Below are positions 20,029-53,690 of a stretch of 64,000 bases of DNA, piece after piece (the first letter of the stretch is position 1; every line of letters begins with the position of its first letter). The notes under the pieces were generated by a model. It searched no databases. It was not told where the DNA came from and saw only the letters and a program-made list of their open reading frames with translations. The DNA is taken from positions 2,542,001 to 2,606,000 of the forward strand of contig CM120646.1 in the NCBI GenBank assembly GCA_051362555.1, in the 5' to 3' direction. The translations under genes and the position numbers were made by a program. This DNA is from Lingula anatina. Lineage: Eukaryota > Animalia > Brachiopoda.

Positions 20029-23000
20029 CAAATTTGCCGGCTCGCGGCACTAAAAGGTCACTTACACTGGCCATTTGCGATAGCTTCCACTCTAGAATCT
20101 ACACCACACAAAGGTGTTCAAGAATTTCTCTTTATTTTTCAACGAACACGTCTTCACATCCAACATGGAGTCCTACTAAATACCAAAACTCCCACCAGAG
20201 GAACGACACAATCATTCGTCTCCTCCGGTGCAACCAAGACAGCAACAATACACAACAGTTGCTTCTTGAAATACACTCCAAAGATTGACCAAACCCATGC
20301 GTTTTTATACAAGGACAGAAATTGCCGAAAAGACCACCCTTCACATTTCTAATCACAGAACATGCAACTGCATGCATCAAGCTTTGTGTGGTAATTAGGT
20401 AATACACCTGGCTACACATGCAGTGACACCTAAGTTTAGGGTTTAAAATAGTGAGAGAGAAAATGTGCAGAAAATTTACCCCCCAAAAAATAATATTCTG
20501 TATAAATTATATAAAGTTTTTGCAACATTAAACAACATTTACCTGCATAGTTATCACTGATTCCTTATAATTCCTTATTACACTGTTAATTTAGACCTTT
20601 TGCAAACTGTATCTTGCAGAGAGCTAAACTGATGGGAGTTAACATGAAAATCTCAACATGTGTGTTTCAATGGCTACTTGAAACTTAATTAGGCAAGTGG
20701 CTAAATGACTTTGAACTAAGGTGTTGATTACCCAAGGGACAATTACAGACTGACCGCCCGTTGTAGCTATATGACACCAAATAAAATAAACATAATTTGA
20801 AAAATGAAAATGTCATACAGAACTGCATTGAACCAAACAGAAAGCAAGCTCACTGATTTTCTAACACAAGCTTCACTTCAGTCCTGTGAATTCTTTCAGT
20901 AAGTTTGATAGGTAACATGTTTTTACCTTAAAGGCTGGCTTTATTGGTTAGATTAATGTATAGGAAATATTTTAGAAGTTGTTAATGATTTTCTTAATCA
21001 GTTTGGGTCAAAAAAGTCCTGCTAAAACAACTAGAATAAGCAATTGGAAAACGAATGGGGAGAGAAACACCCTAAGCAGTCCAAAGAAGACATATTCACA
21101 CGCAGCGAATCGAAACCGTTTTGATGTTTTGGTATGGAGAATCATATGTGTTTTTCTGATGTTTGACTCACCTGCCGTCTTCACTAGCTCTGCAGCTCTT
21201 AAAGCGTCAATCAATATTTTCACTGACGCGTCTGATGTCTTCTTTCTCCACAAAGAAAGGATCTGGAAGCGTTGTTCCCATGCATTTCTTTGGTGGTTCA
21301 TATCGATGTCGTCTATTTCTACGTCTCCTATGGCAAGGTGATATCTAGCCAACATGCGGCAATCTTCCAGTTTAATGTGATCACACAGACTGAGGATAGC
21401 TCTCATGAAGAGGTGGTTCTGATTGAGAAAAGGATAAGACAATGTAATAAAACATATGGTTACACTCCGTCATGATATATTGAAAAATAATAATTATAAT
21501 CCATATATTAATACATAGCAACCAAAAGGTTGAAGTTGTACATTAACTGGATTGGAATAAAAATTACAAATTATAATATTTACATAAAATAAATAATATA
21601 TACAATAAGAGCAAAAGGAGATTGAAATTTGAACAAAAACCTCTAAACGTTTGATAATAGCAAAAGGCAAAGAGTTTCTCAATAAAACACAGACCACTAA
21701 AGGCCTGATAAGGAAAAGGGGATAAAGGTGTATTTAAAACGTTTAGTCCTGAATTCGGTACCTTAAATCTTACTGGCTATTCCATAGTTTCCTGTGGGGT
21801 TTGCAGGTTAATAGGTAATTCAACTTATCTCTGTTGCTTTTAATTTTCGCAAAGAGTGATGTGCAGAGTTCTACGCGGCGGAAAACGCGTTAAGAGGTTA
21901 TTTAAAGGTAATTATTTTTTAAGTCAAGAGAAAATATCCGCATTTAAGATTCTGCAAATAAAAGTAAAGATAAATCTTAATACTAATGTTCTGTTAATTG
22001 TAAAACGGTCAGACAAACTTTTTACAAGATAGGTTTTAAGGCTTTGGTAAAATCATCTGCTTACCATATATTCCTTAATTCTGAAAGACAAACAGCATTA
22101 TCTTTGAAAAATGGCCCGATCATGCTGATTTTCGAACTCAACCTGCGTTTTATAGATATTCATCAGTTTTGTAAGATTAAAGCCAAAAGATTAGACAGGT
22201 TTCCAATTGTTTTTATATAACTGCAAATGCACGACGAAAACGGCGACGGTGGTGACGGCAACGACGACAACAGACGCAAATGTCATCTAAATGTACAGGC
22301 TGTGTCTGCACATAAAAAATCAATATATAGGTTTCATAGGGCTGCAGTAGGATGTTTGATGAAAACTGGCATACCTTAACAACTGAGTTGTTAAATCGAC
22401 ACAGGTACTCCGCGATTGCTGTTTGACCCATCTCTTCTGCCAGCTCGCAAGGTGTTCCTTCTTCCTAAAGATTAGGTAAAACATTTGTGGAAGGGTGTCT
22501 ATTCATCTATATCTTACAAAATCTAAATCGACCAATCTCTCCAAGATTAAAAACAAACCGAATAGCAGTAGGCCTATAATTAATTTCGTGATGTAAACAT
22601 TACTTTTTTTCTTTTCCTAAAGTAAAGTCTAAGCATTTCATTTCGAAAAAATTATAGTTCTTGGACACAAATCTTACTTACGGAAGACCGCAAGCGGGAA
22701 TCTGCCCCATACTGGAAGAGAAGGATCACATTTTGGACATTCCCTCTGAGTACAGCATCGTGGAGTGGTGTTCTTTCGTCCTGTGGGTTTTTGAAATTAA
22801 TGTTTTTTTAATCAAACATTGAATCTGGACTATGCAATAGTATATGTATTTAAGATAGTGTTTTCTATTTTGCTTTAATTCATAATTATTAAAGACAAGT
22901 TTGATTATGCATCAAAGCGGTCTTAAAATAAAGTTTAAAATGTATTCATTCCATTCTCCTATAACATATATGAATGACAGCACACATCCCAAGCGTGTGT

Positions 23001-23293
23001 CCTTTTGTGTACATACATCATCTGGTATATTGGGATCCGCCCTGTGCTGGAGGAGAAGTTGGACACAACGTGTGGCATCTAGCATTGCAGCCAATTGTAG
23101 CGGTGTGCGTCGATACTGTGGATTTGAAGAAATATAATATTTGTTGCAAAATCTGCTTTTTTCTTCGATAATCAGACCATATTATAGTATAATTAAACAG
23201 CCAACTGTATGTAAAATAGTGATTATGCCTGATCAGTAGTAGGCATAGGGAATATTGTAGAATTTGGAAACAACATATACCACAGCATATGTG

Positions 23294-23356
<63 letters not shown>

Positions 23357-26300
23357 GTTTTCATATTAAAATTTAAACAGCAAATACACACAGAGCACAT
23401 ATCCATTCGCATACATTACCAAAGTCTGTATATTGGGATCCGCCCCGTGCTGGAGGAGAAGCTGGACGCACTGTGTGGCACTTTGCTCGACAGCCAAGTG
23501 TAGTGGTGTCTCTCCATTCTGGGGATTTTAAACATGTGAGAGGTTTGGTTCACAATCAGTCTATTTTACAATAAATTATCTTTATTTTAAGATAATTAAA
23601 CATTCTACTGTACAGTGTGTAAACACTTCTCATGTGTGAGTTAGGAAGATATATTCATATATATATATAGATATTTTTAATCCGTAATATATTTGCGATG
23701 GGAAGTTTTAAATTGGACAAAATGTCTGCTACAGTAAATTTGGTTACATGGAATGTGGAGTTTTGAAAAGCCTACACAAACGATGCATACTTACATCATC
23801 CTGTATATTGGGATCTGCCTGCTGCCGGAGGAGAAGCTGGGCACACTGCGTGACATCTCTGTCTTCAGCCTAATGTAGTGGTGAACAATTATACTGTGGA
23901 TGTAAAAATGTGCAACTTTCTCGCAAATTGTATTTTATTTATACATTTACTTCATAAAACATCATAACATCATAAAAGATCCGCGACTTAAAGGAGGAAT
24001 CAACACATATGTAACCTTTGTCTAGAAGAAAAACGGTTAATTATGCCCACTCCAGGTACTATGAATAAAAGAACGGAAATTATAACCATTGGATGTTACA
24101 AGGTGACGTAATTGCCAAGGCGTGCGACCTACCTGTAAGTGTCGTCACGCTGTTAAAAAAACGGTTGAAACATCATTTTAAATAAACACTTTCTGATAGG
24201 GCATATAGCCTATGGGTATTTCCATGAAACTCAAAGATGAGGTTGACACGTATCTTGTGTTAGTTTTATTCATTTATTTATTTGTTTATATTTAGTTATA
24301 CAGGTGTATATACATGTACGTTTTGATGGAAGCCAGAGATTTATTTTAGGTGCATTTTTTCTGTAGGGCAGTTATCGGTTGACATAGAGTAGCCCCATAT
24401 CTCTGAGAAGTAAGGATTGGAGAAATGTGAGTATCAAATAACATCTCTTTAAAAGAGTTGCAAACATTACTCTGAAGTGGAAGAGACTTGGACAGACGGA
24501 AGAATGCCTTTGCAACACGTTAGTGGAGATTACGTCGAATTTTTGAAGAGCTTACTTGTGGTTTAGAAGGAGATCCAGATACATGTATTTGTTGCCCTTT
24601 TGGATTGGTTTTCCAAACAGAAAAAAAATCAATATTTGCAGCTTTTTGCAAAATTTAAAAAACAATAGCCATGTTAAAGTAAGTTTGACACAGTGTGCTG
24701 TCATGTCCGTAATTATCTTTTATAGGAAGGACGTTAAATGCATTTTTGTGATGGGAAATTATCCTGTGAATGCGTTTTAAACTTTGATAGCCCTCCAGCC
24801 CCGCTTGGGGGGGGGGGGGTACGAGCTAGGACTTATGGTTCCTCAACATCCGGTCCTCCCAGTGATCCCTCGTGCCAACTTCCGGTCTCCCGAAGGCATT
24901 TCGGGTGGAAAAATCGTGGAAGTAATAAGCATTACTTGATCTCGACATGCTCTAAGTTACTGTCGTCTGAGTGTTTGTTTCACGCGCTAGACGGAAACAT
25001 ACGACTTACCGACCAGAGCATGTCGTGTGGCACAAAACAAGGTCATTTAATTTTTGATGCGATATTTTGATTAATTGTTGCCAAAAATCGGTTGGGATGT
25101 GGTAATTTGTTTTGTTGCGGTAAATTTTCACTGCACACTGCTCAAAATATCTTTATAGCTGTAGATCTAATTTGGATTCTGCAACCCTATAAAACATTAG
25201 CTTCCCCTTCAAAACAAAGTAATTCGAAACGAAACACCTTTGATGATAAGAAGTAAATGAAAACCCTATGGACCTTTCCCGTAAAATACAACCATTGCCA
25301 TTTACCGTTTTAGCGACCAGCCCCTCTTAGATCCTGTTTGTGTCTTGCAGAACAGTTGCTTCCCTCTTTTCTGAGTGACATGGGATAAGCAAAACAGAAA
25401 ACACCCGAAGAAAATCTCACTCGACTTGTAATTCTGGGAGGAAACTGGATAAAACTTGCCAAGAAACGTAAATTTCATGTTACTGTTACGTGGAAAAAAT
25501 CCATAACCAATGCATAACTTGTAAAGGGACATGGTATAACAGTCTGCCCAATTGCCAGTGCAAATAAAATTGGACTGTTCCGGTGAAATTTCTTAAAAGC
25601 AGTCAGTTACTGACCCAGTTTATTGTTTTTCAGCGGTATTGTCATGTAGTCCAATTTGATTTATAGATATTTAGACTATATGTTGTCTTTATTTGTAATA
25701 AACTTTTGAAAATCCCATTTTTAATCTTATTTGTAATAAAAAGCTCGTTTATTTAAGTATTTTTTTTTTCAATTTAATTTCAATTAATTTATTTTGTTTA
25801 TTTAATATTTATTATTTGAGAATTGATCTGTAAGTTAAAAAGTGTTGGACTGGTATAAGCAAGTCAGATGAAGAAAAATACAATTATTTTATATGCACTG
25901 TTGAGAAAAAGATTTCCCAACATAGACTGCGTAAAACTGAAAATTGTAGCAAGTTTATCATGCTTGTACATTTATTAATTAAAGTTTAATTAAGTGTAAA
26001 TTATGTAGTCTATGGGCCAATGTAGACCCCCCCTTAGATATTTTCGTTCACTATGTTTTTCTGATAGTTTAGGTACTAAGCTTGATTTTTTGCTTGTTTG
26101 TCATTAAACCGGTGGTGGGTGTGTGTGCTACAGCCGTTGCCATGGTAACGGCTGAGACTAAAAATTGAAATTTCTGAGACCAAAGAAATATTAAAATGTT
26201 CAAATGTATTAAGTAAATGGAATTCAAAATCATTTCAGATGTATAGTTTAAGAGCTGCACTATAGTAGTATGAAATCAGGCTGACAGTTACTATCGGCGT

Positions 26301-29300
26301 GAGAAGCGACGTGGGGTGTTTGTTTGTTTGTTTGTTTATCCATTTGTTTGTTTATTTATTTGTTTTTAATAAAGGTGTTGCGGATCCCACACCAAACGAA
26401 TACAAACAACGGGAAAATGTTCACACCTTTATTCACGCACATACACTGACATGGTGAAACTAAAAATAACAAAATAATGAAAGATATACACCAAAGTGAC
26501 AATATAAAAGTACACAAATATAATATAAACTGAATACAAATATAAAAAGAAATAATGGATTAATTATAAGAAACGAGAAATGTTGTGCATACTACAGATT
26601 TGGCTAGACAAAACGAATTATGCTTTTACATATACATTGTGCAAATGATTAACAATACATACAGAGAAATGTGGCTTTTGCCGGCTGATAGTGATCCACA
26701 GATTTTGCCGAAGTGACTATAATAAATCTTGAGACTTGGCGACCTGAGCCTTTTGCTCGTCAAATACAATCGTGGCTGCGCCCAGTAACTACTGCTGGCC
26801 GTATATATACTGAGCAAATCATTTGCATAACAAAACACAGATGACTAGTAACAATACTAATGTAATCGCAACTTGTTGTCGTAAGCGACAACACTCCACC
26901 CTGAGCATCAGAGATAACTTGCCACTAACCTCTTCACTATAGCCTATCTTCATCGTGTCAAGTTACCTCTGACGAAAATAGTTTGACCTAGTTTATATAA
27001 GCCAATCGAATCCATGTTTCAAAATTTTTCACCAAAGTTTGGTGAAAACGCTGATTGGTTGACCGTCAATCGGCAATCCTCGGCTGATTCCGCAAGCTCC
27101 ATACTAACAACATAGTTATTGTCGAGTGCGGAGACATCCGAGTAGTTCCGAGTAGTTCCGAGTACACAAAGAAAGCATGGAGTATATCGGAATTGAAACT
27201 AGAGCAGTTTGATGCCCTTCATCATTATCTACTGAGGGATGATGTATTTTGCGTGCTGCCCACAGGTTACGGCAAGTCCCTGATATTCAGCCTTATCTTT
27301 GATTGGTCCGGATTTGAACAAAGCGCGCGTTGACTCGTTCGCGTTCATTGGCTAGATCGTTCAATGAGTCATTGAGTGCGGGCTTTAAATTTGATTGGCG
27401 GGCGGCGGGGGCTATCGAATGTGGTCAGAGGTAACTTGACACGATGAAGATAGGCTATAGTGAAGAGGTTTGTGGCAAGTTATCTCTGAAGCTCAGGGTG
27501 CAACACTCCCACTAAAACAAAAAAAAAATTAAAATGGCATTTTTATTTGTACAAAGTACATTTATCTACCTCACTACATACTCAAACAAATACATATTCA
27601 CTTATATTATCTGTTACAAACCAACAAACAAAAATCAATATTACTTATTCTTATTCAAATTTACTTACAATTTATTGTTAACAATGTCTCTTAAACAATA
27701 TTGTAATAATAAAACACATATCGTAACAGTCTCCCTCTAAAAATACTAGTTTTGTGATGGGTCTACTATAGCGAGACGATTTAGTACGAACCGTCGCGCT
27801 ACGCAGTAAGCTATCTCTCCCGATCTTAACATCTACAGCTAGAGGCCATGAACCACGGGGCATAGAGGTATCAACTACAAGGACAAGGTCCCCCTCTTTA
27901 AATTTCGCTTGATCTCCCGCCATTTAGGTCTAGACTGAAGCAAAGATAAATATCCCCTAGTCCATCGCTTCCAGAACTGGGAAACAAGAAATTGACAATG
28001 TCTCCACAACCTTCTATACGCATCTGCTATTTCAAAATCACCCCAAGGAAGAGAGGGGTTGTTATGGAGTATTAACAGATGGTTAGGCCTCGAAAATGCA
28101 GTAGTATCGAAGTAGCAAAAAAGCATTAACGCAGTAGTGGTGTGGAGCATATTTGCAGTAGAAATGCAGCATAACTGCAATTCTACTCCAAAAAGTACAT
28201 AGGTTTGTACAGAGAGGAGCATTAATGCAGTAGATTAGGAGCATGATAGAAGCATGTTTCAAATATGCTAATTAGCTCCCAAATCGAAGCAGATTTGAAG
28301 CATGTTTGCAGTATGATTGCAGTAGTCTACTGCGCTGGAGTATCTACTGCGTTTTCTTGCGGGGGAGTAAGAGCGTCACAGTCATTTGAGTCAGTGCTGA
28401 CTTTTGTCATGGGTCTCCCATTTATAATGCTTTCGTACTCACATAAAATTGTCTGTAATACACAATCAGACAATGACTTGGTAGACACATTTGACAACAG
28501 TTCCGTCAGAATTTTTCTGACAGTTCTTATCATGCGTTCCGAGATCCTTCCATGATGGGATGCATGTGGGGGATTTAATTTCTACTCGACACCTCTGCGT
28601 CTTGTGTCCATGAGTATTTTACTCTTGTCTAGCTGACGCAAACTTCTCGATTAATCATTCTGCGCACCAATGAAATTCGTGGCATTGTCACTATAAAATT
28701 TTGAAGGACATCACCTTCTTGCAACAAAACGAAAAAATCCGTTGAGAAACGCGTCAGTACTCAGATTTTCCAATACTTCAATATGCAATGCCCGAGTTTT
28801 GAAACAAGTAAATATGCATCCATAACGCTTAGCATCAGAGCGCCCTACTTTGACAACTAGGGGCCCGAAAATATCGATGCCGACAATATCAAACGGAGGC
28901 CCCCCCCCCCCCCCCGCGCTACACGTCCTCGGGCAAATCCGCCATTTTCTGCCACATAGGTAATGCGTAGAGCTTTTTGCAGATTACGCAGTTTTTGACG
29001 ATTTTCTTGACCAAATTTCTTCCATCAATTATATAGTACTATGGGTCCACTCAGTTCCCATATGTGCTCCACCGTGAAAGTCGCTTATGATCGAAGAGCA
29101 AAATATGTAAGATCTGGGCAAAATGGGAGGGCTGTATACATGCTAATGATGAATGAATAAGTCTACCGCCAACAACTAAAATCCCGCCCTTCACAATAGG
29201 AGATAACTTGTAGATTGCACTCGATCGCAAAATAACGCCGGACTCACTCAAAGATTGAATTTCATGACCAATTACTTCACTTTGGACTGCTCTGAAAATG

Positions 29301-43731: not shown

Positions 43732-46700
43732 CCTTTGCCTTATGGAAGGGAGGTACAGGTTGTTCTGGGATCAACAAAATATTGTCAAAACTGTTCAGTC
43801 TAGGATGTAAAATGTGGTCACTCAGTCATGTGACACATGAATACAAAAGACAGTACTGAGAGGACACACACATCACTGACTTTGCTGGAGATAGACAGAA
43901 GTACATGACTCTCTAAAATATATACTCCACAATTTATGTAAGTGTACAATGTATTTGTTTTAATTCATAAGAATCACTATTTTATTATACTTTAGAACAT
44001 ATTATATTGTATTTTTATTTTTTATTTTTAGTGACCGGCTTTTGGCTTTCGGCTATCGGCTATCTGCTATTGACTGTCTGCTATGAACAATTTTGAATAA
44101 AGCCAACCGTGTACAATAAGTAGTTTTATGTTTTTTTTATAACCCAAAATAGTCAATAAATTTGGTCAAACAATCAAGATTACCAGAAGCAGTTCACTTA
44201 CATAATAACCATGGACTTGAAAACGTTAAAGAAACGAAGTGATGCTAAAAGAGCTGTTACTGTGGGAGCAAAGGCCTTGGAACAAGCCATTGATGTTGGA
44301 CTTGAGGTAAAGGATGCAGTGGAAAGACTAGAGAAAAGATATCTGGATTATTTGGAAGTAACAAACGAATACATGGTGTTATGTGAAGAAACAGATGCAG
44401 ATACTGAATTCACAGTTGTTGCTGAGATGGATCTTCATGAATACGATGAACAGGTGAAAAAAAACGTACCTCAATACAATCCAAGTTTATAAGCAACATA
44501 GCAAACGAAATGTTACTCAAAATTCAGACTCACCCATTCAACTGAAAAAAAGGGAAATCCGTAAATTCTCAGGACACAGAAGAGACTGGCCAGAATTCAA
44601 AAACATTTGGCAAAATATGATTATTCCAGCCGTACAAAATAAAACAGCCTTGGCTGTGGATTTAAAAAACTCTTTTAAGAGTGGTCTAGCTTATGTAGAA
44701 ATTTCCAATATCTCCGCAGGTTCGGAAAATGCTTATGATAAGATGTGGGAGGCATTATGCCTTCACTATGATAATGTCCCATTAGCAGTGTCCAATGCTT
44801 TAGAAGAGATAAGCCAGTTAAAACCAGTGTCATCTGAAGATAATTATCAAGAGCAAGTACAATTGATCAGAAAAATTGATTCCATATTTCAACAGCTAGA
44901 GATGTTAGATCAAGTACATATGGTTTCTTGTAAAGACGTGGCACACATTGTTTCATTTTTTTCACCCTTACTCAGAAAATATTGGGCAGAATTTCTAAAT
45001 AAGTTGCCAGTCTCAGCACAATTACATCCATTAGGTCCACTTCAGGACTTCTTACAATCAAAGTTAGGGGTTCTCAAACAAATGGCAAATGATCAAGCAT
45101 TATTAAAACCTGTCAAAACACAAAAACAAAGTCACAGTCACAATGTTAGAGCAAATCAGAATGATAGTTGTTTTTTACACAATGACAATTCTCATACCAC
45201 TACTCAGTGTAAGCTGTTTTTATCTCTTTCAGTGCCTGAAAGAAAAGAAAAACTCAGACAAGCAGGTAGATGCTTCAGGTGTTTTGCTTCCCACAGAAAA
45301 GAAAATGGTCCATGCTCTTACTGTAACAGACGTTCCCACCATACCCTGATGTGTTGGCAAGCACCCACTGTAGATAAAGGCTATAACACAGGTGACTCTT
45401 CTGTGGAGAGCAAACATGCTGAGAGCAATGTAGCCAAAAGTAATGGTAAGACACTCTATGCCATATATGATGTCCCAGTTTCTTCATCCAAAAACAAAGC
45501 TGTCGTTTTTTGTGATGATGGTGCTGATACTACTTTCATTTCTAAAAATGGTGTGAAAAAGTTAAACGCAAAGAAATTGGGAAAAGTTTCCATTCAAATG
45601 AATACATTAAACTCTACAGACACAATTTTTACTCATTTGTATGAAGTCACTCTCATTACTGTCAGTGGTAGAAAAGTGAAAGTTGAAGCCTTTTGTTTGC
45701 CTACACTCTCAAGCTCTGTTTCTCAGTTAAGTGAGACTGCCATTGCAAACATTTTTCCAAATTTTGATCCAAAAACTCTTCAAAGTCCAAACGGACCCGT
45801 CGACATATTGTTAGGTGGGGATTATTTTGGTTTATATCCAAAAAAAGAAATCGAGTCTGATGGGGCTAACCTCAGTGTAATGGAGGGGGATTTGGGTGTG
45901 TGTTTGCAAGGATATCATCAGTTAATTGAGGAACGAACAGAGAAATCCAACAGCATTGGTTATTCAGTTACTCTCTGCAAATCTGTCAGTACATGTATGC
46001 ATGTGAACTCTTCTTGCATGAAAGTCACTCACAGTGAATTTAACCCCCCCTTCTCAGACCCTTCTAAGAGTGGGGGCGTTATGATTATTAATCCCTCTCA
46101 GAGTCAGGGTGTTGTGTCCTCTATTGACCCCCTCTCAAACCCTTCTAAGGGTGGGGGTGTTGAGGTTACTGATCCCTCTCATGGACATACTGTAGATAGC
46201 TTTGTTGATCCCTTCTTAAACCCTTCTAAGAGTGGGGGTGTTGTGAATTTCAATCCTTCTACAAGCAAGGGTGAAATTGTCTTTCCGGACTCCTTTGATG
46301 AGCACAAAAGTGTACATTCTTTGAAAACAAAAAGTGAGTCACATTTTTCTGAAAAACTCTCTAATATTGACACTTTCATATTAGGTGAGGAAATGGGAAC
46401 GGAAATGAATCCAAAATGTGGTGCTTGCAAATGTGGAAAATGTCCATCTGTGGGACAAACATATTCTTTTTAAGAGGAACAAGAATTACAACTGATTACT
46501 TCAAAATTGCATTATGACAAAGAACGTGAATGCTGGTCTGCTGAATATCCCTGGTTATTTGACCCAGCATTATTGCCTGACAACTATAATGCTGTTTTTG
46601 CCACTTTGAAAAGTACTGAAAAAAACTTAAATTGGACCCTCAATGGGCAGAGAAGTACTCTGAACAAATACATGACATGGAAACTAGAGGTGTAGCTAGA

Positions 46701-49700
46701 AAAATGACCCAGCAAGAAATTCTTGAATGGGATGGTCCTGTCTTCTACAGGACAGCATAATATTGCTGATTGGGTCACAAGAGGTAGGTTTCCTAGTGAT
46801 TTAGATCCTGATTCCGAATGGTTCAATGGACCAGATTTTCTTTACAAGCCACGAGATCAGTGGATTGTGAAATTTAACCCTACTGTGTCTGAATTTCTTC
46901 CAGGTGAGAAGAAGATCCAAGCATCTGTGAAAACGGTGAATACTGGCACATTTCTCCATGCAGAGACATCTTATTCCAGGTGTTTATCTTTGAAAGTTAT
47001 AAAATGGGCTTATGCTAGGATCTTGGCTATTTTCAGAGCAGGTTCTTTCCGAGGAGGAAATAAGTCCAAAGTTACACCTGAATTACTTACACAGGCTGAA
47101 ATGCTTTTGATTTCTGATGCTCAGAATTCTGCATGGTATAATGATAGTGTGAAAGCACAGTTCCGTACTTTGATGCCTGTTAGACAAGATGGATTATGGA
47201 TGGTAGGGACACGCATTGCAGATCAAAATCCACTGACACCTGAAAACAAACCATTGATTTTACTGCCTAGAAAGCATCCTTTGACCAAGTTGTTTATGAA
47301 AGATGCAAATTCAAATTGTGGTCATAAAGGTCGCGATGTTACAGTGACAAAGTTCAGGTCACGATTTTGGACATATCATGCTGCAAAATTAAGCAAAAGT
47401 ATTTGTGACAATTGTCAATTGTGCAAACTTCTCAAAACAAAATACGTTGATCAAAAAATGGGCCCTATGCCACCTGCTCGTCTCATGCCTTCTCCTCCAT
47501 TTTCCACAGTGATGTTGGATTTATTTGGACCCTATCAGGTAAGAGGGGAAGTTCAAAAACGCACTACTGGTAAAGCATGGGGGGTCATTTTTACTGATCA
47601 TTGTAGCAGGGCTGTTCACATTGAAGTGGTGTTTGGATATGACACACAGTCATTTTTGTTGGCATTGTCTCGTTTTGCAGCTATTCGAGGATGGCCGTCT
47701 GTTATCTATTCAGACCCTGGTTCTCAACTTCTAGGTGCTAGCGTTGAACTAGCACGAGCATGGGCCAATATAGATAAAGACGTTCTTTTGAGACAAGGTT
47801 CAGACATGGGTCTTAATTGGAAATTTGGGCCTGCTGACAGTCCATGGTATCAAGGTGCTGTAGAATCATTGTTAAAGTCTGCTAAAAAAGCAATTGACTT
47901 AAGTGTGAAAAATCAGAGGTTATCTGTGCCTGAAATTCTCACTGTCTTTACACAAGTTGCAGATTTGCTTAATGAAAGACCAATAGGAGTGATGCCCAGT
48001 GTTGATTCTACTCTCAATATCCTTACTCCCAATTCTCTACTTCTTGGTAGATCTACTTCTAGAAATCCTGGAGGTTATGATGCAAATCCTTCCTTGAGAT
48101 CTCGTCTCACTTTAGTAGAAGGCTGTGTAAAACAGTTCTGGGAGCAATGGAAGAATCTCTTTGCACACACTCTTGTCCATCAAACCAAGTGGTTTAAAGA
48201 GAATCGAGACTTGAAAGTGGGAGATGTTGTTATAGTACCTGATAGCAATGTTCTCAAGGGAGAATATCGTCTTGCAAAGGTTACTGAAGTTTTCCCTGGC
48301 ACTGATGGTCTTGTAAAAAGGGTGAAAGTGTCTTATAAAAATTATAGAGTGGGAGAAAAAGTTCATGAGTACAAGGGTGCTAAGAATATTGAGGTAGAGA
48401 GATCTGTCAGAAGATTGGGTTTATTAATTCCTGTTGAGGATATGTAATTGCTCTCAAATATTAATGCAACATTGTATATATATTATATTAGTACACAAGT
48501 TATTAATGATGTTATATAATTATTTCTTTATTAGTTCTAGTTTAGTTACAGTATATGAATATATTTCATTAGTTAAAATTTTGTGTGACATTTAAACTCT
48601 AAGTTTAATAATTAGTGTCGCAGAGATAAAAATATATAATGTATCTCTGCGAGGAGAACCTCCCGATGTTCTGGGATCAACAAAATATTGTCAAAACTGT
48701 TCAGTCTACGATGTAAAATGTGGTCACTCAGTCATGTGACACATGAATACAAAAGACCACACCTACAGTACTGAGAGGACACACACATCACTGACTTTGC
48801 TGGAGATAGACAGAAGTACATGACTCTCTAAAATATATACTCCACAATTTATGTAAGTGTACAATGTATTTGTTTTAATTCATAAGAATCATTATTTTAT
48901 TATACTTTAGAACATATTATATTGTATTTTTATTTTTTATTTTTAGTGACCAGCTTTCGGCTTTCGGCTATCGGCTATCTGCTATTGACTATCTGCTATG
49001 AAGAATTTTGAATAAAGCCAACCGTGTGCAATAAGGAGTTTTATGTTTTTTTTTTTTTTATATAACCCAAAACACAGGTGAGCGATGATGACACCATCGC
49101 TTCTGTTGAAAATAGCCCCTATTTTTTTTTATGTGGATGGCTTCCAGGTCTTTGTTGTAGTGTGCTTTTGGTTCATTGTCAATCACCTTGATTTTTTCAA
49201 TCACTTGACCATGTGACATTTTGTTAGGGTACCCGGTAATTAGCTCTTATTCATAGTCATATAAAATGTTTACACATCCCGCTGTGTCTAAAAAGGTTTT
49301 GTGAGCGGTAATTATAGTCTTTATAATAATAGTTATTTTAAGTCCATAAATATCTATTATATGAAGGAAAATGAATGTATTTTTCTTCTGTAATGGGAAA
49401 TTGTAAGTTTTAGCATCAAAAATAATGTCACAATGAATGTTTTTTTTTATTTGATAAAATGTTTTAAAAGTACAGTACACACATCACAAGCAAGTGTCCA
49501 CTCACATACTTACACTATCTAGTATATTAGGTTCCGCCCTATGCTGGAGAAAAAGATGGACACACTGTATGGAACCTTGCTTTGCAGCCAAGTGTAGTGA
49601 TGAACGTCTGAACTGTGGGATTGAAATAATACATTTTTTTGCATATTTAAAAACAGTAGTCACGTCTAAGTTAGTGTGACACAGTGTGCCGTTATGTCCG

Positions 49701-52031
49701 TAATAATATATTATTGGGAGGACGCTAAATGCATTTTTTGTGATCGAAAATAACCTTGTGCATATGTTTTTTAACTTCGATCTGTTGTTTTAAAGATGAG
49801 TTAAAGGGTGGAAACGCCCCAAGCATATGTCCATTCACATACTTACATCATCCTGTATATTGGGATCCGCCCCGTGCTGGAGGAGAAGCTCACACTGTGC
49901 AGCACCTTGCTCTGCGGCAATGTGTAGTGGTGTACGTCCAAGCTGAGGGTTTTAAAAAAAAACATGTAACTTTTTGCAAAATTTATGAAAAGTGTTCAGT
50001 TTTAGTTAGTTCCGCAAAGTGTGCTAATTTGTCGGTTTATAGGAAGGGCGTTATTCGAATTTTTGTGATGGGAAATTACCTTGTGAATGAGTTTTTAAAC
50101 TTTGATATATTGTTTTAATACATGTAGTACAGTTAAATATTGCACACAACCAAAACTTATGTCCGTCTAGATACTTACTTTTCCGTAATGATCTTTTACA
50201 GGAAGGACGTTAAATGCATTTTTGTGATGGGAAATGACCCTGTGAATGTGTTTTTGAACTTTGATTTAGCGTTTTAATAGTACTGTTAAATAGTGCACAC
50301 ACCCAAAGCATATGCCCATTCACATACTTACCCTTTCAGTTATATTGGGATCTGCCCTGTGGTGGAGAAGAAGCTGGATACAATGTGTGGCACCTCGCTG
50401 TACAGCCAAATGTAGTGGTGTACGTAAAGCCTGTCGGTTTAAATAACATAATAAATTATTAATAAATTTATTTTAAGTCTAAAATCCATTTAAAATGTTT
50501 AGTAGACTTTACATAAAATATCATAAATAATACTACATAAAATATCATAAATAATATCTAGGTAAAACAGCCATTATTCCATACAATTAAATGCAATTAA
50601 TACAAATTTTATAAAAACCAATTAAGAGTTAATCAAAATATTTCCTAAAAAGGTATGTTTTGAGTTCATTTTTTAAATTTTTGGTAGACTGAATTGCTCG
50701 GATTTCCAGCGGTAATAGATTCCATTCCTTTGGACCTGCAGCTTTAGAAGATATATCACCGTAGGATTTTAATCGCATTTTTACTGAGTTGAGTAGCATT
50801 TGGTCTACAGACCGCAGATTTCGCATTGGAACATAGCGATTTTTGGTGCCAATCCATAAAAAGCATCGTGAGTAAAAACTAAAAATTTTAATAAAATTCT
50901 GGCTTGTAGAGGTAGCCAGTGTTAACTTTTTTAAACTGGGGAGATGTGTATATTTGTGGATGTCCGAGTTAATAATCTGGCTGAAATATTATGAATGCGC
51001 TGCAGTCTAGCAATTTGTTTCTTTGGACAACCGTATAAAATGGAGTTGCAGTAATGTAATCGAGATGTAACTAAACCATTTATAACTGGCTGCAGCAGAG
51101 TCAGACAGCTGATTGCGAATTGCACTTATGTTCCTAATGTTAAAAACCGCTGACGTGCATACACTGGTAATATGTTTGTTCATACAAAGTGTTCCACATG
51201 TGACTTTTTTGCAAAATTTAAAAATAATTGTCCAGTTTTAGTTTCTTCCGCCAAGTGTGCTTTTTTATCGATTTAAAGGAAGGGCGTTAAATGTATTATT
51301 TGTGATGGGCAATTACCCTGTTCATGAGTTTTTAAACTTTGATATATTGTTTTAATAGTACAGTTACATAGTGCACACACCGAAAACGAATGTCCGTCCA
51401 GAAACTTACATCATCCTGTATATTGGGATCTGCCCCGTGCTGGAGGAGAAACTGTACACACACTGTGGCACCTTGCTGTGCAGCCAAGTGTAGTGGTGTA
51501 TGTTTAACCTGTGGATTTGAAAAACGTGATAATCTTAATGCATAATTAGCTATTAGTTTAAATAATTTTTGCTTCAATCAACAACTTAATTTTGAAGTAG
51601 TTTACCTGGAATATTTTGATGTCTAACAGAACATCTTCATTAGGTAATGAGACTTTCCGGGTGTATACCCAGCAGGCAAAGTTGCGTTGGATCAACGTTG
51701 AAAACAGGTTGATACGTTGAATTGCCGTTGATCTTTATATATTAGAACTATATATATCAATCTAAACCTTGGACATTTTAACTTAAAGACCATTCATTTA
51801 TACCCTACATATATTTGGCCATCAATCATGTCCTGCTGCTAAACACATCCATGCTAATTTCCTGCTGGGTGGGGTTTATATAACATTGTTTTCTGACGTT
51901 GACACAACTTTCAAATCCAACGTTTATCCAATGTCTTCTCAAAGTTATGGTTCAACGTTGTTTCAACGTTAAAACAACATAATTTGCCCACTGGGTAGCC
52001 TCTACCCAGGGGATATACTTGCCCCCTCCTC

Positions 52032-52063: not shown

Positions 52064-53690
52064 GCCTTATGGAAGGGAGGTACAGGTAAGGGATGATGAC
52101 ACCATCATTTCTAGCCCCTATTTTCTTGATGTGGATGGCTTCCAGGACTTTGTTGTGGTGTGCTTTTGGTTCACTGTCAATCACCTTGATTTTTTCAATC
52201 ACTTGACCATGTGATATTTTGTTAGGGTACCCGGTAATTAGCTTTTATTCATAGTCATATAAAATGTTTACACATCCCGCTGTGTCTAAAAAGGTTTTGT
52301 GAGCGGTAATTATAGTCTTTATAATAATAGTTATTTTAAGTCCATAAATATCTATTATATGAAGGAAAATGAATGTATTTTTCTTCTGTAATGGGAAATT
52401 GTAAGTTTTAGCATCAAAAATAATGTCACAATGAATGTTTTTTAATTTGATAAAATGTATTATTAGTACAGTACACACATCACAAGCAAGTGTCCACTCA
52501 CATACTTACACTATCTAGTATATTAGGTTCCGCCCTATGCTGGAGAAAAAGATGGACACACTGTATGGAACCTTGCTTTGCAACCAAGTGTAGTGATGAA
52601 CGTCTGAACTGTGGGATTAAAACAATACATTTTTTTTTTGCATATTTAAAAACAGTAGTCATGTCTAAGTTAGTGTGACACAGTGTGCCGTTATGTCCGT
52701 AATAATATATTATTGGGAGGACGCTAAATGCAATTTTTGTGATCGAAAATAACCCTGTGCATATGTTTTTTAACTTCGATTTGTTGTATAATAGTAGAGT
52801 TAAAGGGAGCACACGCCCCAAGCATATGCCCATTCACATACTTACATCATCCTGTATATTGGGATCCGCCCCGTGCTGGAGGAGAAGCTGGACACACTGT
52901 GTGGCACCTTGCTCTGCAGCCAAGTGTAGTGGTGTGCGTCCAAGCTGTGGGTTTTAAAAACCGTGATAATTGGGGTGCATTATTAGTTATTTTTAATTAG
53001 TCATATTTCATGTTCACACGGTCCACTGCTTGTAAATAGTGTTTATGACTGGTCATAAGGCCTTATAATTAAATTTACTCTAAGTCCGTAATTATCAATT
53101 GTAGGAATGTAGAATGTATGTTGCTTTTGTGATGGGAAATTGTAAGATACGGCAGCAAAATAAATGTCACAGTGACTTTTTTAAAGTTTGATATTATATT
53201 TTAATACTAAAGTTATAACAGACCACACACCCAAGCACATTTCCACTCACATACTTACCTTATCCTGTATATTGGGATCTGCCCTGTGCTGGAGGAGAAG
53301 CTGAATACACTGTGTGGCACTTAGCTTTACAGCCAGGTGTAGTGGTGTACGTCCTTCCTGTGGGTTTTAAAAATAGGCATTTTTTTAGCAAATTATCCTT
53401 AATTAATACAAAAAATTATAAGTACACCGTATTTATTAAATGAGATAAATTAAATTAATGCGTGATCATACATTCGTACAATTTTTGTCTTGAAAATACT
53501 GCAGTTTTTTTAAGTTCAATAAAGTTTTAGCTAGAGGACGTCAAAGCATTTCACATTTTAATTAGACACTGAAAGATTAATTCATCACCAGGTCAGTTGT
53601 GTTGACATCCAAGGTCCAGTCTCTCAGTAGTTTCGTTAACCTCTGCAAGTCTCCATCCTCAGCAGCTTGTAAGAGACCCACTGCAAACAT
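7667..53690 (-). CDS. Multi-exon ankyrin-repeat + death-domain protein gene (22 coding exons proposed; ~859 aa without the stop-containing exon)
   Basis: Exons with AG/GT boundaries assembled manually: 53589-53690, 18 ANK exons between 53357 and 22682, 22375-22464, 21172-21418, 7667-8133. All splice phases are compatible. ATG context ccgccaagATG. Confidence 0.85.
10170..10865 (+). mobile_element. Degenerate non-LTR retrotransposon 3' fragment
   Basis: LRTTSLALAYSTAEYCAPVWCRSSH and WTRLNRIRTGH...CQSPAC with stops and frameshifts. Confidence 0.75.
11470..11491 (+). other. Primer binding site complementary to tRNA-Lys(UUU)
   Basis: TGGCGCCCGAACAGGGACTTGA, 2 nt after the 5' LTR end TGTTACA. Confidence 0.92.
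11527..11725 (+). repeat. 63-bp tandem repeat (x3) in the Gypsy 5' leader
   Basis: ccccgtataa(c/t)acggtcca recurs with a 63-bp period. Confidence 0.9.
12734..14122 (+). CDS. gag: Gypsy Gag (RRM-like N-terminus, PNMA-like capsid, CCHC knuckle)
   Basis: RSIVITGLP...FVVFED; LPLFSGD...FKQWLFEV; CWKCGMIGHRQSEC; first ATG at 12740. Confidence 0.93.
   Translation: MRMAYPSSLLRSRSIVITGLPEQITDSELKDFLKFHLVSEFTIEYIHRPDTILGAIFVVFEDVALATEAIDILDKRKYDGQTVDVKKINKSMERDILDALETKESKLSEVIGMIKSLPADDIVKVYEEVKSLLPKSSKPKFPANSTPKRTPIFRIQKGSTPRRLLPKIPTFSTSGSELVSYTHPPRLPLFSGDSKDASFKQWLFEVKALRRDGIYSDAVLLHAIRRSLKSPASDVLYHLGDVKEIDRVLEKFEQVFGDVLSSGAILQQFHSSKQHDSESIAAWACRLESLVAQLLSINPPAVTDTGAKSMLRLKFYSGLNSNTTRHLLKNKFDGGATFEELLVEGRTIEMEEKERFHLDAAVSDMRSGGLMKAIDSLSRRLSGLETSIGRRNREYSASRNGTGTARGATGNDSSRRSFSGECWKCGMIGHRQSECPTLNLNQSVRGGTQQTLNPNAPNYNHQ
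14035..16599 (+). CDS. pol: Gypsy Pol (protease, RT, RNase H), probably reached by -1 frameshift
   Basis: ALVDTGS, LRFCIDLRKLN, YLDDII, TDAS, HKLEFLAL; slippery site T TTA AAC at 14044-14050. Confidence 0.95.
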   Translation: MSNFKLEPVCERGHSADAQPKRPKLQSSVVKRLVGNSNECMTVFHGRELRALVDTGSVVSTISASCAKSCGLEINPLESVLGFQVAGGHNISYLGYVEASLTIPHVDRLESDVFLFLVVPNTEYHTRTPLLLGTNILSLVIDTQGVNENDLPYALKLARECMVKQQRAPDHDGVVGNVRITKPITVRQGEKMLINGTSNISTNQQMLVLAEENLHSFLPGGLLLYPSIHMIQPCSSPYDISVEISNFSCHSITIPGGSTICNLSQVSIVPPESTIGNVDNHDDFTCQFDDMLQENLSPAQVSEVKHLLSRYKTSFAIHDLDLGKCTTVKHKINLVDEIPFKSKHCHIPPSMFSEVRNHLNEMLQLGVIRKSSSPYSSGVVLVRKKDGSLRFCIDLRKLNAKTIRDAYALPRIDETLDILYGSSWYSCLDLKSAYWQVEIEEADILKTAFSVGPLGFYECVRMPYGCTNAPATFQRLLESCMGDLNLEHCLIYLDDIIVFSKTYEEHIVKLENVLSRLRDHGLKLKPSKCKLFQRKISYLGHVVSSKGIETDPKKLEAVKNWPVPKSVQDVMSFIGFVGYYRRFIKGFSEIAKPLHDLTKGKVSKTSKKSRKSTETFVWQAKHEEAFQELKNACIHSPILAFADFTQPFELRTDASGSGLGALYQKQNGLDRVIAYASRGLRQSEKNYPVHKLEFLALKWAVTEKFSDYLYGNSFTVKTDNNPLTYVLSSAKLDVTTHRWVADLANYNFNIVYVAGKSNVEADALSRVRWPETISENTCQAIWQSAQSGEPLISCLPCSEEVIPNEILSSAVNQKKDWKRLQEDDPELKKVRDVLKGRVESIKGNSLKVKGFEKR
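16596..17846 (+). CDS. Gypsy integrase, separated from RT/RH by a frameshift
   Basis: HHCC zinc finger, DYL...TDQG...NGQCERMN, GPY/F-like tail. Confidence 0.93.
   Translation: MSSLILSNDVLFRTKQKNDGSILKQLVLPKAYRKDALYGCHDEIGHLGRERAIDLLNQRFYWPGMSKQMGEYISKCTRCIKRKTLPVARAELCPISSSAPLELVCMDYLTIEDGKGGVGNILVITDHFTRYAQAYPTANQTAKTTAKVFFENFVVHYGFPNRIHTDQGRNFEGKVIADLCSIAGVKKSRTTPYHAMGNGQCERMNRTLLDMLGTLSLNQKSNWKKHIASLVHAYNCTRNSSTSFSPYYLMFGRHPKLPVDVSLDVSSETTAKSQSEYVRELKNRLQEAFNMAKVQIERAQSRQKQNFDRKTGAGVLSIGDRVLIRNVAFDGKHKIADRWQSEVFVVVDQPNDGIPVYVVKREDGAGKSKTLHRNMLLTIYEMKQEYEEKQNEELAEVRSTRSRNRPEWMNNKDWIL
18897..20060. repeat. ~143-bp minisatellite (about 5 units), possibly inside a non-autonomous Helentron-like element
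   Basis: Units aagttcagttcatggtgaaaagtaggtcaaaggtcaatttcaaggtca... start near 19281, 19420, 19561, 19706, 19851; the region begins AACTAGAG. Outer boundaries approximate. Confidence 0.65.
21172..21418 (-). CDS. Death-domain exon
   Basis: Phase 0 to phase 1. NHLFMRAILSLCDHIKLEDCRMLARYHLAIGDVEIDDIDMNHQRNAWEQRFQILSLWRKKTSDASVKILIDALRAAELVKTA matches the death-domain pattern (LAR.L, ID.I, EQ...L..W, L..AL). Confidence 0.85.
22375..22464 (-). CDS. ANK exon E20 (C-capping repeat)
   Basis: 90 bp, tag/gtatgc, EEGTPCELAEEMGQTAIAEYLCRFNNSVVK. Confidence 0.85.
22682..22780 (-). CDS. ANK exon E19 (divergent repeat)
   Basis: 99 bp, DERTPLHDAVLRGNVQNVILLFQYGADSRLRSS. Confidence 0.88.
23017..23115 (-). 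CDS. ANK exon E18
   Basis: 99 bp, [33 protein letters not shown]. Confidence 0.88.
23299..23353. repeat. (TA)n microsatellite
   Basis: Direct reading. Confidence 0.95.
23420..23518 (-). CDS. ANK exon E17
   Basis: 99 bp, [33 protein letters not shown]. Confidence 0.88.
23795..23893 (-). pseudogene. ANK exon E16 with in-frame TAG (pseudo-exon or poison exon)
   Basis: [32 protein letters not shown]; TAG at 23870-23872; cag/gtaagt splice sites intact. Confidence 0.85.
26897..27500. mobile_element. Non-autonomous TIR transposon carrying a RecQ-like helicase fragment
   Basis: ~75-bp TIR caccctgagc...gctcagggtg, TSD CAACACTC(C); internal ELKLEQFDAL...VFCVLPTGYGKSLIF at 27181-27290. Confidence 0.85.
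32014..32590. mobile_element. Long-TIR MITE (TGTCA...TGACA, TATA TSD) inserted in the BEL 5' LTR
   Basis: ~190-bp inverted repeats; the empty site is visible in the other LTR at 26631. Confidence 0.9.
35920..36217. mobile_element. PIF/Harbinger-type palindromic MITE in Gypsy pol, rearranged
   Basis: GGC...GCC ends, TAA TSD (35917-35919 and 36218-36220), interrupts pol reading EEIKAATADDN. Confidence 0.85.
37179..37974. mobile_element. Older, longer relative of the CCCAGC MITE family
   Basis: Shares catgtcctactgctaaacacatcc and ttcaaatccaa...acaacataatttgc with 43312-43662. Confidence 0.65.
38823..38918 (-). CDS. ANK exon E15 (96 bp)
   Basis: LGRTPLHVTAERGATQC-ELLLQQRMDPNILDR, donor gtcagt. 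Confidence 0.82.
39158..39256 (-). CDS. ANK exon E14
   Basis: 99 bp, [33 protein letters not shown]. Confidence 0.88.
39466..39564 (-). CDS. ANK exon E13
   Basis: 99 bp, [33 protein letters not shown]. Confidence 0.88.
39977..41615. mobile_element. Non-autonomous TGTCA...TGACA element with CCGG TSD (Ginger1-like)
   Basis: Filled site acccgg|tgtca...tgaca|ccggtaatt versus empty paralogous site acccggtaatt near 49231 and 52229. Confidence 0.8.
41891..41989 (-). CDS. ANK exon E12
   Basis: 99 bp, FRRTSLHLAAKQGSIQCVHLFLQHRAEPNILDR. Confidence 0.88.
42230..42325 (-). CDS. ANK exon E11 (96 bp)
   Basis: [32 protein letters not shown]. Confidence 0.85.
42707..42805 (-). CDS. ANK exon E10
   Basis: 99 bp, [33 protein letters not shown]. 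Confidence 0.88.
43054..43152 (-). CDS. ANK exon E9
   Basis: 99 bp, [33 protein letters not shown]. Confidence 0.88.
43312..43662. mobile_element. MITE CCCAGC...ACTGGG, TA TSD
   Basis: Terminal inverted repeats; empty site in the paralogous intron near 39720. Confidence 0.85.
43761..49074 (+). mobile_element. BEL/Pao LTR retrotransposon lacking most of RT/RNase H
   Basis: LTRs 43761-44151 and 48667-49074, TSD CAGGT; gag and protease 44211-46473 (CFRCF zinc knuckle, DDGADTTF); integrase 46723-48447 (LDLFGP, SDPG, GAVES). Confidence 0.95.
49514..49612 (-). CDS. ANK exon E8
   Basis: 99 bp, FRRSSLHLAAKQGSIQCVHLFLQHRAEPNILDS. Confidence 0.88.
49847..49942 (-). CDS. ANK exon E7 (96 bp)
   Basis: [32 protein letters not shown], in-frame 3-bp deletion. 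Confidence 0.85.
50332..50430 (-). CDS. ANK exon E6
   Basis: 99 bp, [33 protein letters not shown]. Confidence 0.88.
50450..51195 (-). mobile_element. 5'-truncated CR1/L2-type LINE fragment
   Basis: LVTSRLHYCNSILYG...LQRIHNISARL, RNLRS, GPKEWNLLP...LKTYLF; absent from the paralogous intron near 42825. Confidence 0.85.
51410..51508 (-). CDS. ANK exon E5
   Basis: 99 bp, [33 protein letters not shown]. Confidence 0.88.
51668..51995. mobile_element. Same MITE insertion, copied by block duplication
   Basis: Same position and near-identical sequence to 43312-43662. Confidence 0.85.
52060..52232 (-). mobile_element. Penelope-like (GIY-YIG C-terminal) remnant; paralogous copies at 49075-49235 and 39790-39976
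   Basis: IKVIDSEPKAHHNKVLEAIHIKK...NDGVIIPYLYLPSI. Confidence 0.65.
52510..52608 (-). CDS. ANK exon E4
   Basis: 99 bp, FRRSSLHLVAKQGSIQCVHLFLQHRAEPNILDS. Confidence 0.88.
52846..52944 (-). CDS. ANK exon E3
   Basis: 99 bp, [33 protein letters not shown]. Confidence 0.9.
53259..53357 (-). CDS. ANK exon E2
   Basis: 99 bp, cag/gtaagt, [33 protein letters not shown]. Confidence 0.9.
53589..53690 (-). CDS. ANK-DD gene exon 1 (start, N-capping ankyrin repeat)
   Basis: MFAVGLLQAAEDGDLQRLTKLLRDWTLDVNTTDL, then phase-0 donor gtgatg. Confidence 0.85.

What the first reader, a model, noticed from the sequence alone, without database searches (positions are those of the whole stretch)
21172..53690. 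Array of interchangeable single-ankyrin exon cassettes joined to a death domain: candidate combinatorial 'natural DARPin' immune sensor
Seen: 18 closely related one-repeat exons, all phase 0-0, lie between unique N-cap and C-cap exons and a death-domain exon. The neighbouring introns are also homologous, so whole exon+intron cassettes were amplified recently. Any subset can be skipped, lost or duplicated without a frameshift. Established: 99-bp one-repeat exons occur in ordinary ankyrin genes, so the layout alone is not new; death domains are signalling adaptors in innate immunity and cell death; repeat-module shuffling diversifies receptors in other systems (VLR LRR cassettes, Dscam exon arrays, fungal NLR repeats). 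Inference: this locus may generate variable binding surfaces on a constant signalling tail through alternative splicing and/or unequal crossing-over.
Basis: partly seen in the sequence, partly recalled or inferred. Interest (0 to 1): 0.88.

Follow-up and report, generated by a model that had tools for sequence, protein, structure and literature searches.

The report
Brachiopod ankyrin-exon array death-domain gene
A gene, likely from a lamp shell (Lingula), strings together 18 exons of one ankyrin repeat each in front of a death domain; the repeats differ most at their predicted binding face and related genes carry other repeat sets, so the family is likely a fast-evolving intracellular sensor, but mix-and-match splicing is untested and this copy was not seen in RNA.

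Summary
The array is real: 18 phase 0-0 ankyrin exons on the minus strand between cap exons and a FADD-like death-domain exon. Corrections: three exons are 96 nt, cassette 15 has an in-frame stop, cassette 18 is only about 50% like the rest, a last exon lies at 8133-7667, and recent growth copied a four-exon block, not single cassettes. All relatives found are Lingula anatina proteins with the same layout but different repeat sets. New support: amino-acid change concentrates at the six positions randomised in DARPin libraries (omega 3.6 against 0.89 elsewhere), and frames and splice sites are better kept than neutral drift allows. Against: in five RNA runs the family is transcribed, but all death-domain reads carry paralog letters (43 of 43 at one site). 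No read shows skipping at this locus, no haplotype difference was seen, and four LTR retrotransposons fill half the gene. Best reading: a lineage-specific binder family diversified in the germ line, likely an immune or cell-death sensor, with this copy partly decaying. The same logic is known from brown-algal ROCO/NB-ARC-TPR genes and fungal NLRs; the ankyrin plus death-domain form in an animal is a new variant.

The parts
53589..53690 (-). First coding exon, ATG plus N-cap repeat (34 codons), donor GTGATG
   Evidence: 68-79% identical to the N-termini of P0002 and P0005
53259..53357 (-). ANK cassette c1 (99 nt)
52846..52944 (-). ANK cassette c2, class B, closest to the centre of the cassette tree
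52510..52608 (-). ANK cassette c3, class C
51410..51508 (-). ANK cassette c4, class D
50332..50430 (-). ANK cassette c5, class E
49847..49942 (-). ANK cassette c6, class B, 96 nt (codon 18 missing)
49514..49612 (-). ANK cassette c7, class C (99% to c3)
43761..49072 (+). BEL/Pao-type LTR retrotransposon in the c7-c8 intron (LTRs 93.8% alike), inserted after the block duplication
43054..43152 (-). ANK cassette c8, class D (98% to c4)
42707..42805 (-). ANK cassette c9, class E (99% to c5)
42230..42325 (-). ANK cassette c10, class B, 96 nt (96% to c6)
41891..41989 (-). ANK cassette c11, class C (97-98% to c3, c7)
39466..39564 (-). ANK cassette c12, older class D copy (upstream flank 85-86% to c4, c8)
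39158..39256 (-). ANK cassette c13, older class E-like copy (downstream flank 84% to c5, c9)
38823..38918 (-). ANK cassette c14, 96 nt, donor GTCAGT
32986..38291 (+). Gypsy-type LTR retrotransposon in the c14-c15 intron (LTRs 91% alike)
26376..32013 (-). BEL/Pao-type LTR retrotransposon in the c14-c15 intron (LTRs 94% alike)
23795..23893 (-). ANK cassette c15 with in-frame TAG at codon 8; splice sites intact; longest branch among c1-c17
23420..23518 (-). ANK cassette c16
23017..23115 (-). ANK cassette c17
22682..22780 (-). ANK cassette c18, divergent last repeat (45-55% to the others)
22375..22464 (-). C-cap exon (90 nt, phase 0-0)
   Evidence: (59-67% to 4 of 5 paralog models)
21172..21418 (-). 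Death-domain exon (247 nt, phase 0-1), FADD-like
11198..18206 (+). Young Gypsy-type LTR retrotransposon in the last intron (LTRs 99.2% alike)
7667..8133 (-).

Best explanation
This is one copy of a gene family found so far only in Lingula proteins, in which one-repeat ankyrin exons precede a FADD-like death domain, and the family likely acts as an intracellular sensor whose binding face is likely diversified in the germ line by block duplication of exons plus selection on contact residues. Shown: exon layout, four-exon period, excess amino-acid change at the six DARPin positions, paralogs with other repeat sets, transcription of family members. Inferred: the exon boundary falls in the hairpin tip, so each gain, loss or skip of an exon would pair a new last codon with a new first codon, the two most variable sites; ligand binding along the concave face would cluster the death domains and recruit a FADD/RIPK/caspase-8-type partner, leading to NF-kB signalling or cell death. 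This copy can give a full-length product (859 aa) only if c15 is skipped, and it looks like an ageing, weakly used or partly decaying member of a birth-and-death family.
For: Omega 3.59 at six positions fixed beforehand against 0.89 elsewhere (LRT against 1: p 2e-6); without the two junction codons omega 2.78 (p 0.002); with a separate rate for these codons p 0.003. Mean pairwise amino-acid difference 0.72 against 0.27 among 11 class representatives (permutation p 7e-5; inner four positions p 0.001). The same positions are the most variable among 28 distinct paralog repeats (Mann-Whitney p 7e-4). Neutral simulation predicts 7-8 of 16 cassettes with a stop and 6-7 with a broken splice site; observed 1 of 18 and 0 of 18 (P of at most one stop 0.01-0.03; P of no broken site 0.005-0.01; 400 runs, 16-tip tree). 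Five relatives, all named Lingula anatina, share the death domain (80-82%) and tail; the models with an N-cap hold 9, 11 and 12 repeats; none of the window's 13 binding-face signatures occurs among their 27. Best solved-structure matches of the death domain are FADD (E 1.6e-5). RNA reads of relatives show repeat-to-repeat joints with varied hairpin residues and 2 N-cap-to-repeat reads.
Against: No immune induction, ligand or partner is known; the immune role rests on analogy. Scaffold omega 0.89 does not differ from 1 (p 0.63) and recent block copies show 8 amino-acid against 2 silent changes, as relaxed selection would give. Intron flanks diverged faster (tree length 2.9-5.1 per site, free trees, alignment noise included) than exon silent sites (about 1.2), so against introns the surface excess is small. 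Recombination between cassettes can inflate omega and was not resolved (p 0.64). Fast early divergence of new repeat copies is reported as universal (PMC5120217, abstract), so it is not specific to immunity. This copy was not seen in RNA: 43 of 43 reads at 21203 carry a paralog letter and c18 has no depth in 3 of 3 runs. The one other DNA run laid is identical in 7 of 8 listed pieces, so no haplotype variation was seen.
Confidence: 0.5

Rival explanations
1. Combinatorial splicing is the main engine: each locus makes many isoforms by skipping cassettes, Dscam-style, on a constant death-domain tail.
For: All 18 exons are phase 0-0 with intact, near-identical splice sites; c15 must be skipped for a full-length product; two RefSeq isoforms of one paralog differ by cassette content (X3 has two cassettes where X4 has one other; at least 13 cassettes in all); splice variants are reported for the analogous brown-algal ROCO genes (PMC11378527, abstract and section 15).
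Against: No read from this locus, so no skip joint. RefSeq isoforms are computed models, and near-identical exons can fake joints. Donors are strong consensus (GTAAGT in 15 of 18), as for constitutive exons. The block copies are redundant (13 signatures in 18 cassettes). No feature for mutually exclusive choice was looked for or seen.
Confidence: 0.15
2. This copy is a young pseudogene, and the array is a by-product of unequal crossing-over in a transposon-rich region; the variable positions are simply the ones that any ankyrin repeat tolerates.
For: In-frame stop in c15 with intact splice sites; scaffold omega 0.89; one-codon deletions in c6, c10, c14; LTR elements make up 51% of the gene span; internal duplication in the tail; no locus-specific reads in the 3 runs laid on the death-domain exon, and N-cap bin depth 0 in 2 of 3 other lays.
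Against: Stops and broken splice sites are far rarer than neutral drift predicts; surface sites change faster than silent sites of the same exons; no frameshift in any of 22 exons; the RNA runs come from other samples that may lack this allele.
Confidence: 0.2
3. The family is a fast-evolving binder in another conflict or recognition process (transposon control, self/non-self or gamete recognition, developmental cell death), not pathogen sensing.
For: The selection signal says only that the binding face is under pressure; death domains also serve non-immune apoptosis (established knowledge); fungal relatives of this logic act in allorecognition (PMC13449251, abstract start and passages).
Against: No positive evidence for any of these roles; multi-copy birth and death with a FADD-like domain is typical of immune families (inference).
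Confidence: 0.15

Closest known systems
Brown-algal ROCO (LRR) and NB-ARC-TPR genes (PMC3341825: abstract and section 15 read; PMC11378527: abstract and section 15 read)
   Same: One repeat per exon, dead repeat exons inside the array, repeat number differing between recent paralogs (13 and 17 in one pair), diversifying selection on the repeats, signalling domain behind them; immune role also only proposed.
   Different: LRR or TPR, not ankyrin; a ROC-COR or NB-ARC nucleotide switch, absent here; inverted repeat exons on the other strand are common there and absent here; splice variants are reported there.
Fungal NLRs with highly conserved ANK/TPR/WD40 repeats, HNWD family (PMC4986451 and PMC13449251, passages read)
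   Same: Near-identical ankyrin repeats with positive selection on the concave face and hairpin, repeat-number change, link to a cell-death effector.
   Different: NACHT or NB-ARC domain present, effector at the N-terminus, repeat-number polymorphism shown between strains; here no NTPase domain, the death domain is C-terminal and each repeat is its own exon.
Annotated Lingula anatina proteins XP_013402085/XP_013402078, XP_013384855, XP_013382515, XP_013383939, XP_013422129 (P0001-P0006)
   Same: Same architecture N-cap, ANK(n), C-cap, death domain, tail; death domain 80-82% identical; same repeat scaffold.
   Different: Carry only automatic names; other repeat sets and numbers; single-copy tail; the window's death domain is a third type, about equally far from both annotated types.
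Human ANKDD1A/ANKDD1B and canonical ankyrins ANK1-3 (ANKDD1A: search listing only; architectures recalled)
   Same: Ankyrin repeats with a death domain; one-repeat exons occur in ordinary ankyrin genes (recalled).
   Different: Their repeats are old and fixed in number (recalled); no such protein appeared among the death-domain hits; canonical ankyrins have ZU5-UPA domains, not found here.
DARPins (PMC8248824 and PMC8683736, passages read); Dscam and VLR (Dscam as described in PMC11378527 section 15; VLR recalled)
   Same: Cap, variable internal repeats, cap; variation at repeat positions 2, 3, 5, 13, 14 and 33.
   Different: DARPins are synthetic; Dscam has shown alternative splicing of exon arrays and VLR somatic assembly, neither shown here.

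Membership tests
Lingula ANK(n)-death domain-tail family (P0001-P0006) | Shared death domain, C-cap, N-cap and tail | tested here: met
   Death domain 80-82%, C-cap 59-67% (4 of 5 models), N-cap 68-79% (2 of 5 models), tail 57-70%
Repeat-shuffling candidate receptors (ROCO / NB-ARC-TPR / HIC-NLR logic) | One repeat per symmetric exon, or highly similar repeats | tested here: met
   18 of 18 exons phase 0-0; c1-c17 65-99% identical
Repeat-shuffling candidate receptors (ROCO / NB-ARC-TPR / HIC-NLR logic) | Diversifying selection on the binding face | tested here: met
   omega 3.6, p 2e-6; permutation p 7e-5; caveats on recombination and on the neutral yardstick
Repeat-shuffling candidate receptors (ROCO / NB-ARC-TPR / HIC-NLR logic) | Repeat number and content differ between paralogs | tested here: met
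   9, 11-12 and 18 repeats; no shared signature; the paralog side rests on computed gene models
Repeat-shuffling candidate receptors (ROCO / NB-ARC-TPR / HIC-NLR logic) | Repeat-number polymorphism between alleles | tested here: inconclusive
   One other DNA run, identical at 21060-24000; its contigs are too short to order the array
NLR / ROCO proteins proper | NACHT, NB-ARC or ROC-COR domain | tested here: not met
   No such Pfam match in the exons tested or in P0001-P0005
Dscam-type combinatorial splicing | Multiple cassette-skipping or mutually exclusive isoforms in RNA | tested here: inconclusive
   No locus-specific reads in the runs laid; two computed isoforms of a paralog differ
VLR-type somatic assembly | Incomplete germ-line gene rearranged in somatic cells | not testable with these tools
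   The germ-line gene is complete and spliceable as it stands; no single-cell DNA available
Canonical ankyrins (ANK1-3) | ZU5-ZU5-UPA between repeats and death domain (recalled) | tested here: not met
   The C-cap exon is followed directly by the death-domain exon; no ZU5 match in paralogs
ANKDD1A/B orthologues | Conserved 1:1 orthologue across animals | tested here: inconclusive
   Death-domain search returned only 5 Lingula proteins among 129 candidates, but it is word-limited; no tree with ANKDD1 was built
Immune sensor | Ligand binding, induction by challenge, signalling through the death domain | not testable with these tools
   No functional data; run metadata give no treatment

The most novel reading that the evidence does not exclude
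Lingula has a natural DARPin library: several loci each hold a bank of one-repeat ankyrin exons under diversifying selection, and cells choose subsets by exon skipping (with the stop cassette as a poison exon), giving a combinatorial intracellular receptor repertoire on a constant FADD-like death domain, an ankyrin-based counterpart of Dscam or VLR in an animal.
Probability: 0.15. Interest if true: 0.85.

Novelty: new variant of a known kind. Interest (0 to 1): 0.47.

Why it matters
If the best reading holds, the repeat-shuffling receptor strategy described in brown algae and fungi has arisen again in an animal, with ankyrin exons and a death domain but no NTPase switch, and natural selection has varied the same positions that engineers randomise in DARPins. 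It gives a small, testable family for asking how sessile marine invertebrates widen intracellular recognition. If cell-level exon choice were shown, it would be a new form of diversified receptor repertoire in animals.

Tried and rejected
No whole genome was held, so the family could not be counted in this animal. Joints in the DNA contigs of X2 across the array run between near-identical blocks and were rejected as evidence of copy-number change. 'Goes back' joints in RNA are reads of other family members or other ankyrin genes whose consecutive repeats fit one cassette best, not circular or shuffled transcripts; most such reads match only about 52 nt and continue in a different ankyrin type. 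8-10 reads per run were 99% or more alike, but the output does not place them; they may lie in the high-copy repeat at 22107-22190. A BAG1 search meant to test species identity found nothing. The AlphaFold model of P0001 was unusable (pLDDT 40), so no fold search was run. The tail has no Pfam match, no Atlas hit by features and only unnamed structure hits of TM 0.56 or less; the full-library search gave 2 family members and 1 weak hit judged chance (P0007). A RHIM-like motif in the tail (recalled pattern) was considered; Pfam gave no match, so it was dropped. The Atlas query on the death domain did not complete. The star comparison against c2 is biased by c2's own states (silent changes also look high at surface codons), so the likelihood model and all-pairs test were preferred. 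A four-gamete test on 11 sites showed no distance effect. c15 and c18 were left out of the codon model and the simulation tree; repeats in paralogs were picked by a motif that fixes positions 19-24. No complex prediction was run. Literature: searches found no paper on this Lingula family; a 2018 review of the Lingula immune repertoire (recalled, not listed in these searches) and supplements, none of which I read, may mention it.

Full report
Anatomy. The gene lies on the minus strand. All 18 cassettes have AG and GT borders and phase 0-0; 15 are 99 nt and three are 96 nt. A profile built from them finds these 18 and nothing else in the window. Pfam confirms Ank for the three cassettes tested and Death for the death-domain exon, whose best matches among solved structures are FADD. 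With all exons the frame would be 892 codons, but c15 has a TAG at codon 8; without c15 it is 859. A second DNA run matches the c15 stretch with no difference, so the stop is real; that run may come from the same animal and is not independent support for anything else. Four LTR retrotransposons lie in introns and fill 51% of the 46-kb span.

How the array grew. The cassettes are not 18 independent units. c3/c7/c11 are 97-99% alike, c4/c8 98%, c5/c9 99%, c6/c10 96%, and blocks of 0.2-0.9 kb align at 84-94% in register. The order is c1, then B-C-D-E three times (c2-c5, c6-c9, c10-c13), then c14 and the older c15-c18. This fits unequal crossing-over with a four-exon unit (inference). Between classes the exons are mostly 70-90% alike and the tree is star-like around c2. 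Intron flanks are clearly homologous for c1-c14 and near background for c15-c18. The 18 cassettes give 13 distinct six-residue binding-face signatures.

Family. The death-domain search returned 5 proteins among 129 candidates, all named Lingula anatina, at 80-82% identity. The tail search returned the same 5 among 46 candidates, and the full-library search 2 of them plus one weak unrelated hit. The window is therefore likely from a lingulid brachiopod, and the family looks lineage-specific within the reach of these searches. Motif counts give 1, 1, 5, 9, 11 and 12 repeats; only the models with 9 and 11-12 have an N-cap, so the short ones are probably incomplete. None of the window's signatures recurs among the 27 in the paralogs. 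One repeat type is shared between paralogs with different death-domain types (P0003 and the last repeat of P0002 differ at 3 of 33 residues), which fits exchange or shared ancestry. Some paralog models have 2-18 extra residues between repeats. RefSeq isoforms X3 and X4 of one paralog differ in cassette content; these are computed models whose read support I could not see.

Selection. DARPin libraries randomise repeat positions 2, 3, 5, 13, 14 and 33 (PMC8248824, passage read; the mapping onto the repeat is recalled). In the exon frame these are codons 33, 1, 3, 11, 12 and 31, so the exon boundary lies in the hairpin between positions 2 and 3. I fixed this set before testing. A codon model on 16 cassettes (c15 and c18 left out) gave omega 3.59 there and 0.89 elsewhere (p 2e-6 against 1), junction codons 5.4 and inner four 2.8 (p 0.002); allowing these codons their own rate left p 0.003. 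An all-pairs permutation on 11 representatives agrees (p 7e-5; inner four p 0.001), as does entropy over 28 paralog repeats (p 7e-4). Neutral simulation predicts many stops and broken splice sites; 1 of 18 and 0 of 18 are seen. Limits: scaffold omega is not below 1 (p 0.63); recent copies differ by 8 replacement and 2 silent changes; intron flanks diverged about 2.5 to 4 times more than silent sites; recombination was not resolved; and accelerated divergence of new repeat copies is reported as general (PMC5120217, abstract).

RNA. Five runs from three studies were laid at 90% likeness, 6-30% of each run read. The neighbouring BAG1-like gene is covered in the 3 of 3 runs laid on it, with spliced reads in one, so the RNA comes from a close enough animal. 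The family is transcribed: death-domain reads are present in 3 of 3 runs, in at least two sequence forms. But at 21182, 21203, 21230 and 21242 every read has another letter than the window (40 of 40, 43 of 43, 37 of 37, 25 of 25), and the amino-acid changes point to the P0003/P0004/P0005 type. A contig of that type is also present in the DNA run X2 (record 2). c18 has no depth, the C-cap almost none, and the N-cap bin none in 2 of 3 runs. Reads of relatives show repeat-to-repeat joints with varied hairpin residues, one with an extra residue, and two N-cap-to-repeat reads; they may partly come from other ankyrin genes. So expression and splicing of this copy are not shown. Silence is not shown either, as the sampled animals may lack this allele.

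Mechanism. Shown: layout, block growth, surface-focused change, paralog differences, family transcription. Inferred: a cytoplasmic protein (the first exon begins directly with a cap repeat) whose concave ankyrin face binds a foreign or altered protein and whose clustered death domains recruit a FADD/RIPK/caspase-8-type partner. Diversity most likely arises in the germ line; skipping of c15 is required for this copy and wider skipping is possible but untested. The tail has no known family and the structure model failed. I give this reading 0.5, a young pseudogene 0.2, splicing as the main engine 0.15 and a non-immune conflict 0.15.

Comparison. [quoted passage not shown] It is a member of neither, since it lacks their NTPase domains, and it is not a canonical ankyrin. 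PMC8195603 and PMC11463336 (passages) discuss death-fold expansions and apoptosis genes in brachiopods but not this family; PMC5100051 (passages) notes that ankyrin arrays tolerate added repeats; PMC4308713 (passages) places randomised positions in the hairpin and first helix. Searches found no description of the family. Unchecked scan notes report sea-urchin ankyrin/ZU5/death-domain arrays with a similar variable face, so the pattern may recur in marine invertebrates; I did not test these.

Verdict. A real feature, a new variant of a known kind, interest 0.47. The bold reading, a spliced combinatorial repertoire, is not excluded (0.15) and would deserve 0.85.

Noticed in passing
window 63286-59300, minus strand: BAG1-like gene (Pfam BAG match at 60369-60698; other exons and 3' UTR read by eye); transcribed in the three RNA runs laid on its 3' end.
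   Followed up: partly
window about 57600-56500, minus strand: Small spliced reading frame beginning with a hydrophobic, signal-peptide-like stretch (by eye); first-mate-plus RNA depth 3-6 at 56060-57299 in run X4 only. Possibly a secreted peptide gene.
   Followed up: no
window 11198-18206: Young Gypsy-type element (LTRs 99.2% alike) whose gag-like frame has an RRM and a PNMA-like region; pol lies in separate frames.
   Followed up: partly
window 7733-8097: The tail exon holds an internal duplication (79% alike), absent from the five paralog models.
   Followed up: partly
window 22107-22190: Short very high-copy repeat in the intron between C-cap and death domain (contig depth about 1e6 in X2, several hundred reads deep in RNA).
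   Followed up: no
RNA reads on 52852-52903 and 23426-23477: Hundreds of reads match only the 3' half of a cassette and continue into other ankyrin repeat types, pointing to a larger, well-expressed group of related ankyrin-repeat transcripts in this animal.
   Followed up: no
P0002, P0004, P0005, P0006: Paralog models have repeat spacings of 34-51 residues, with insertions at the hairpin junction like long-loop ankyrin binders; models only.
   Followed up: partly
window 19234-19968; 54185-55435; 300-1605: A 144-bp tandem array and two pairs of diverged direct repeats of unknown nature.
   Followed up: no
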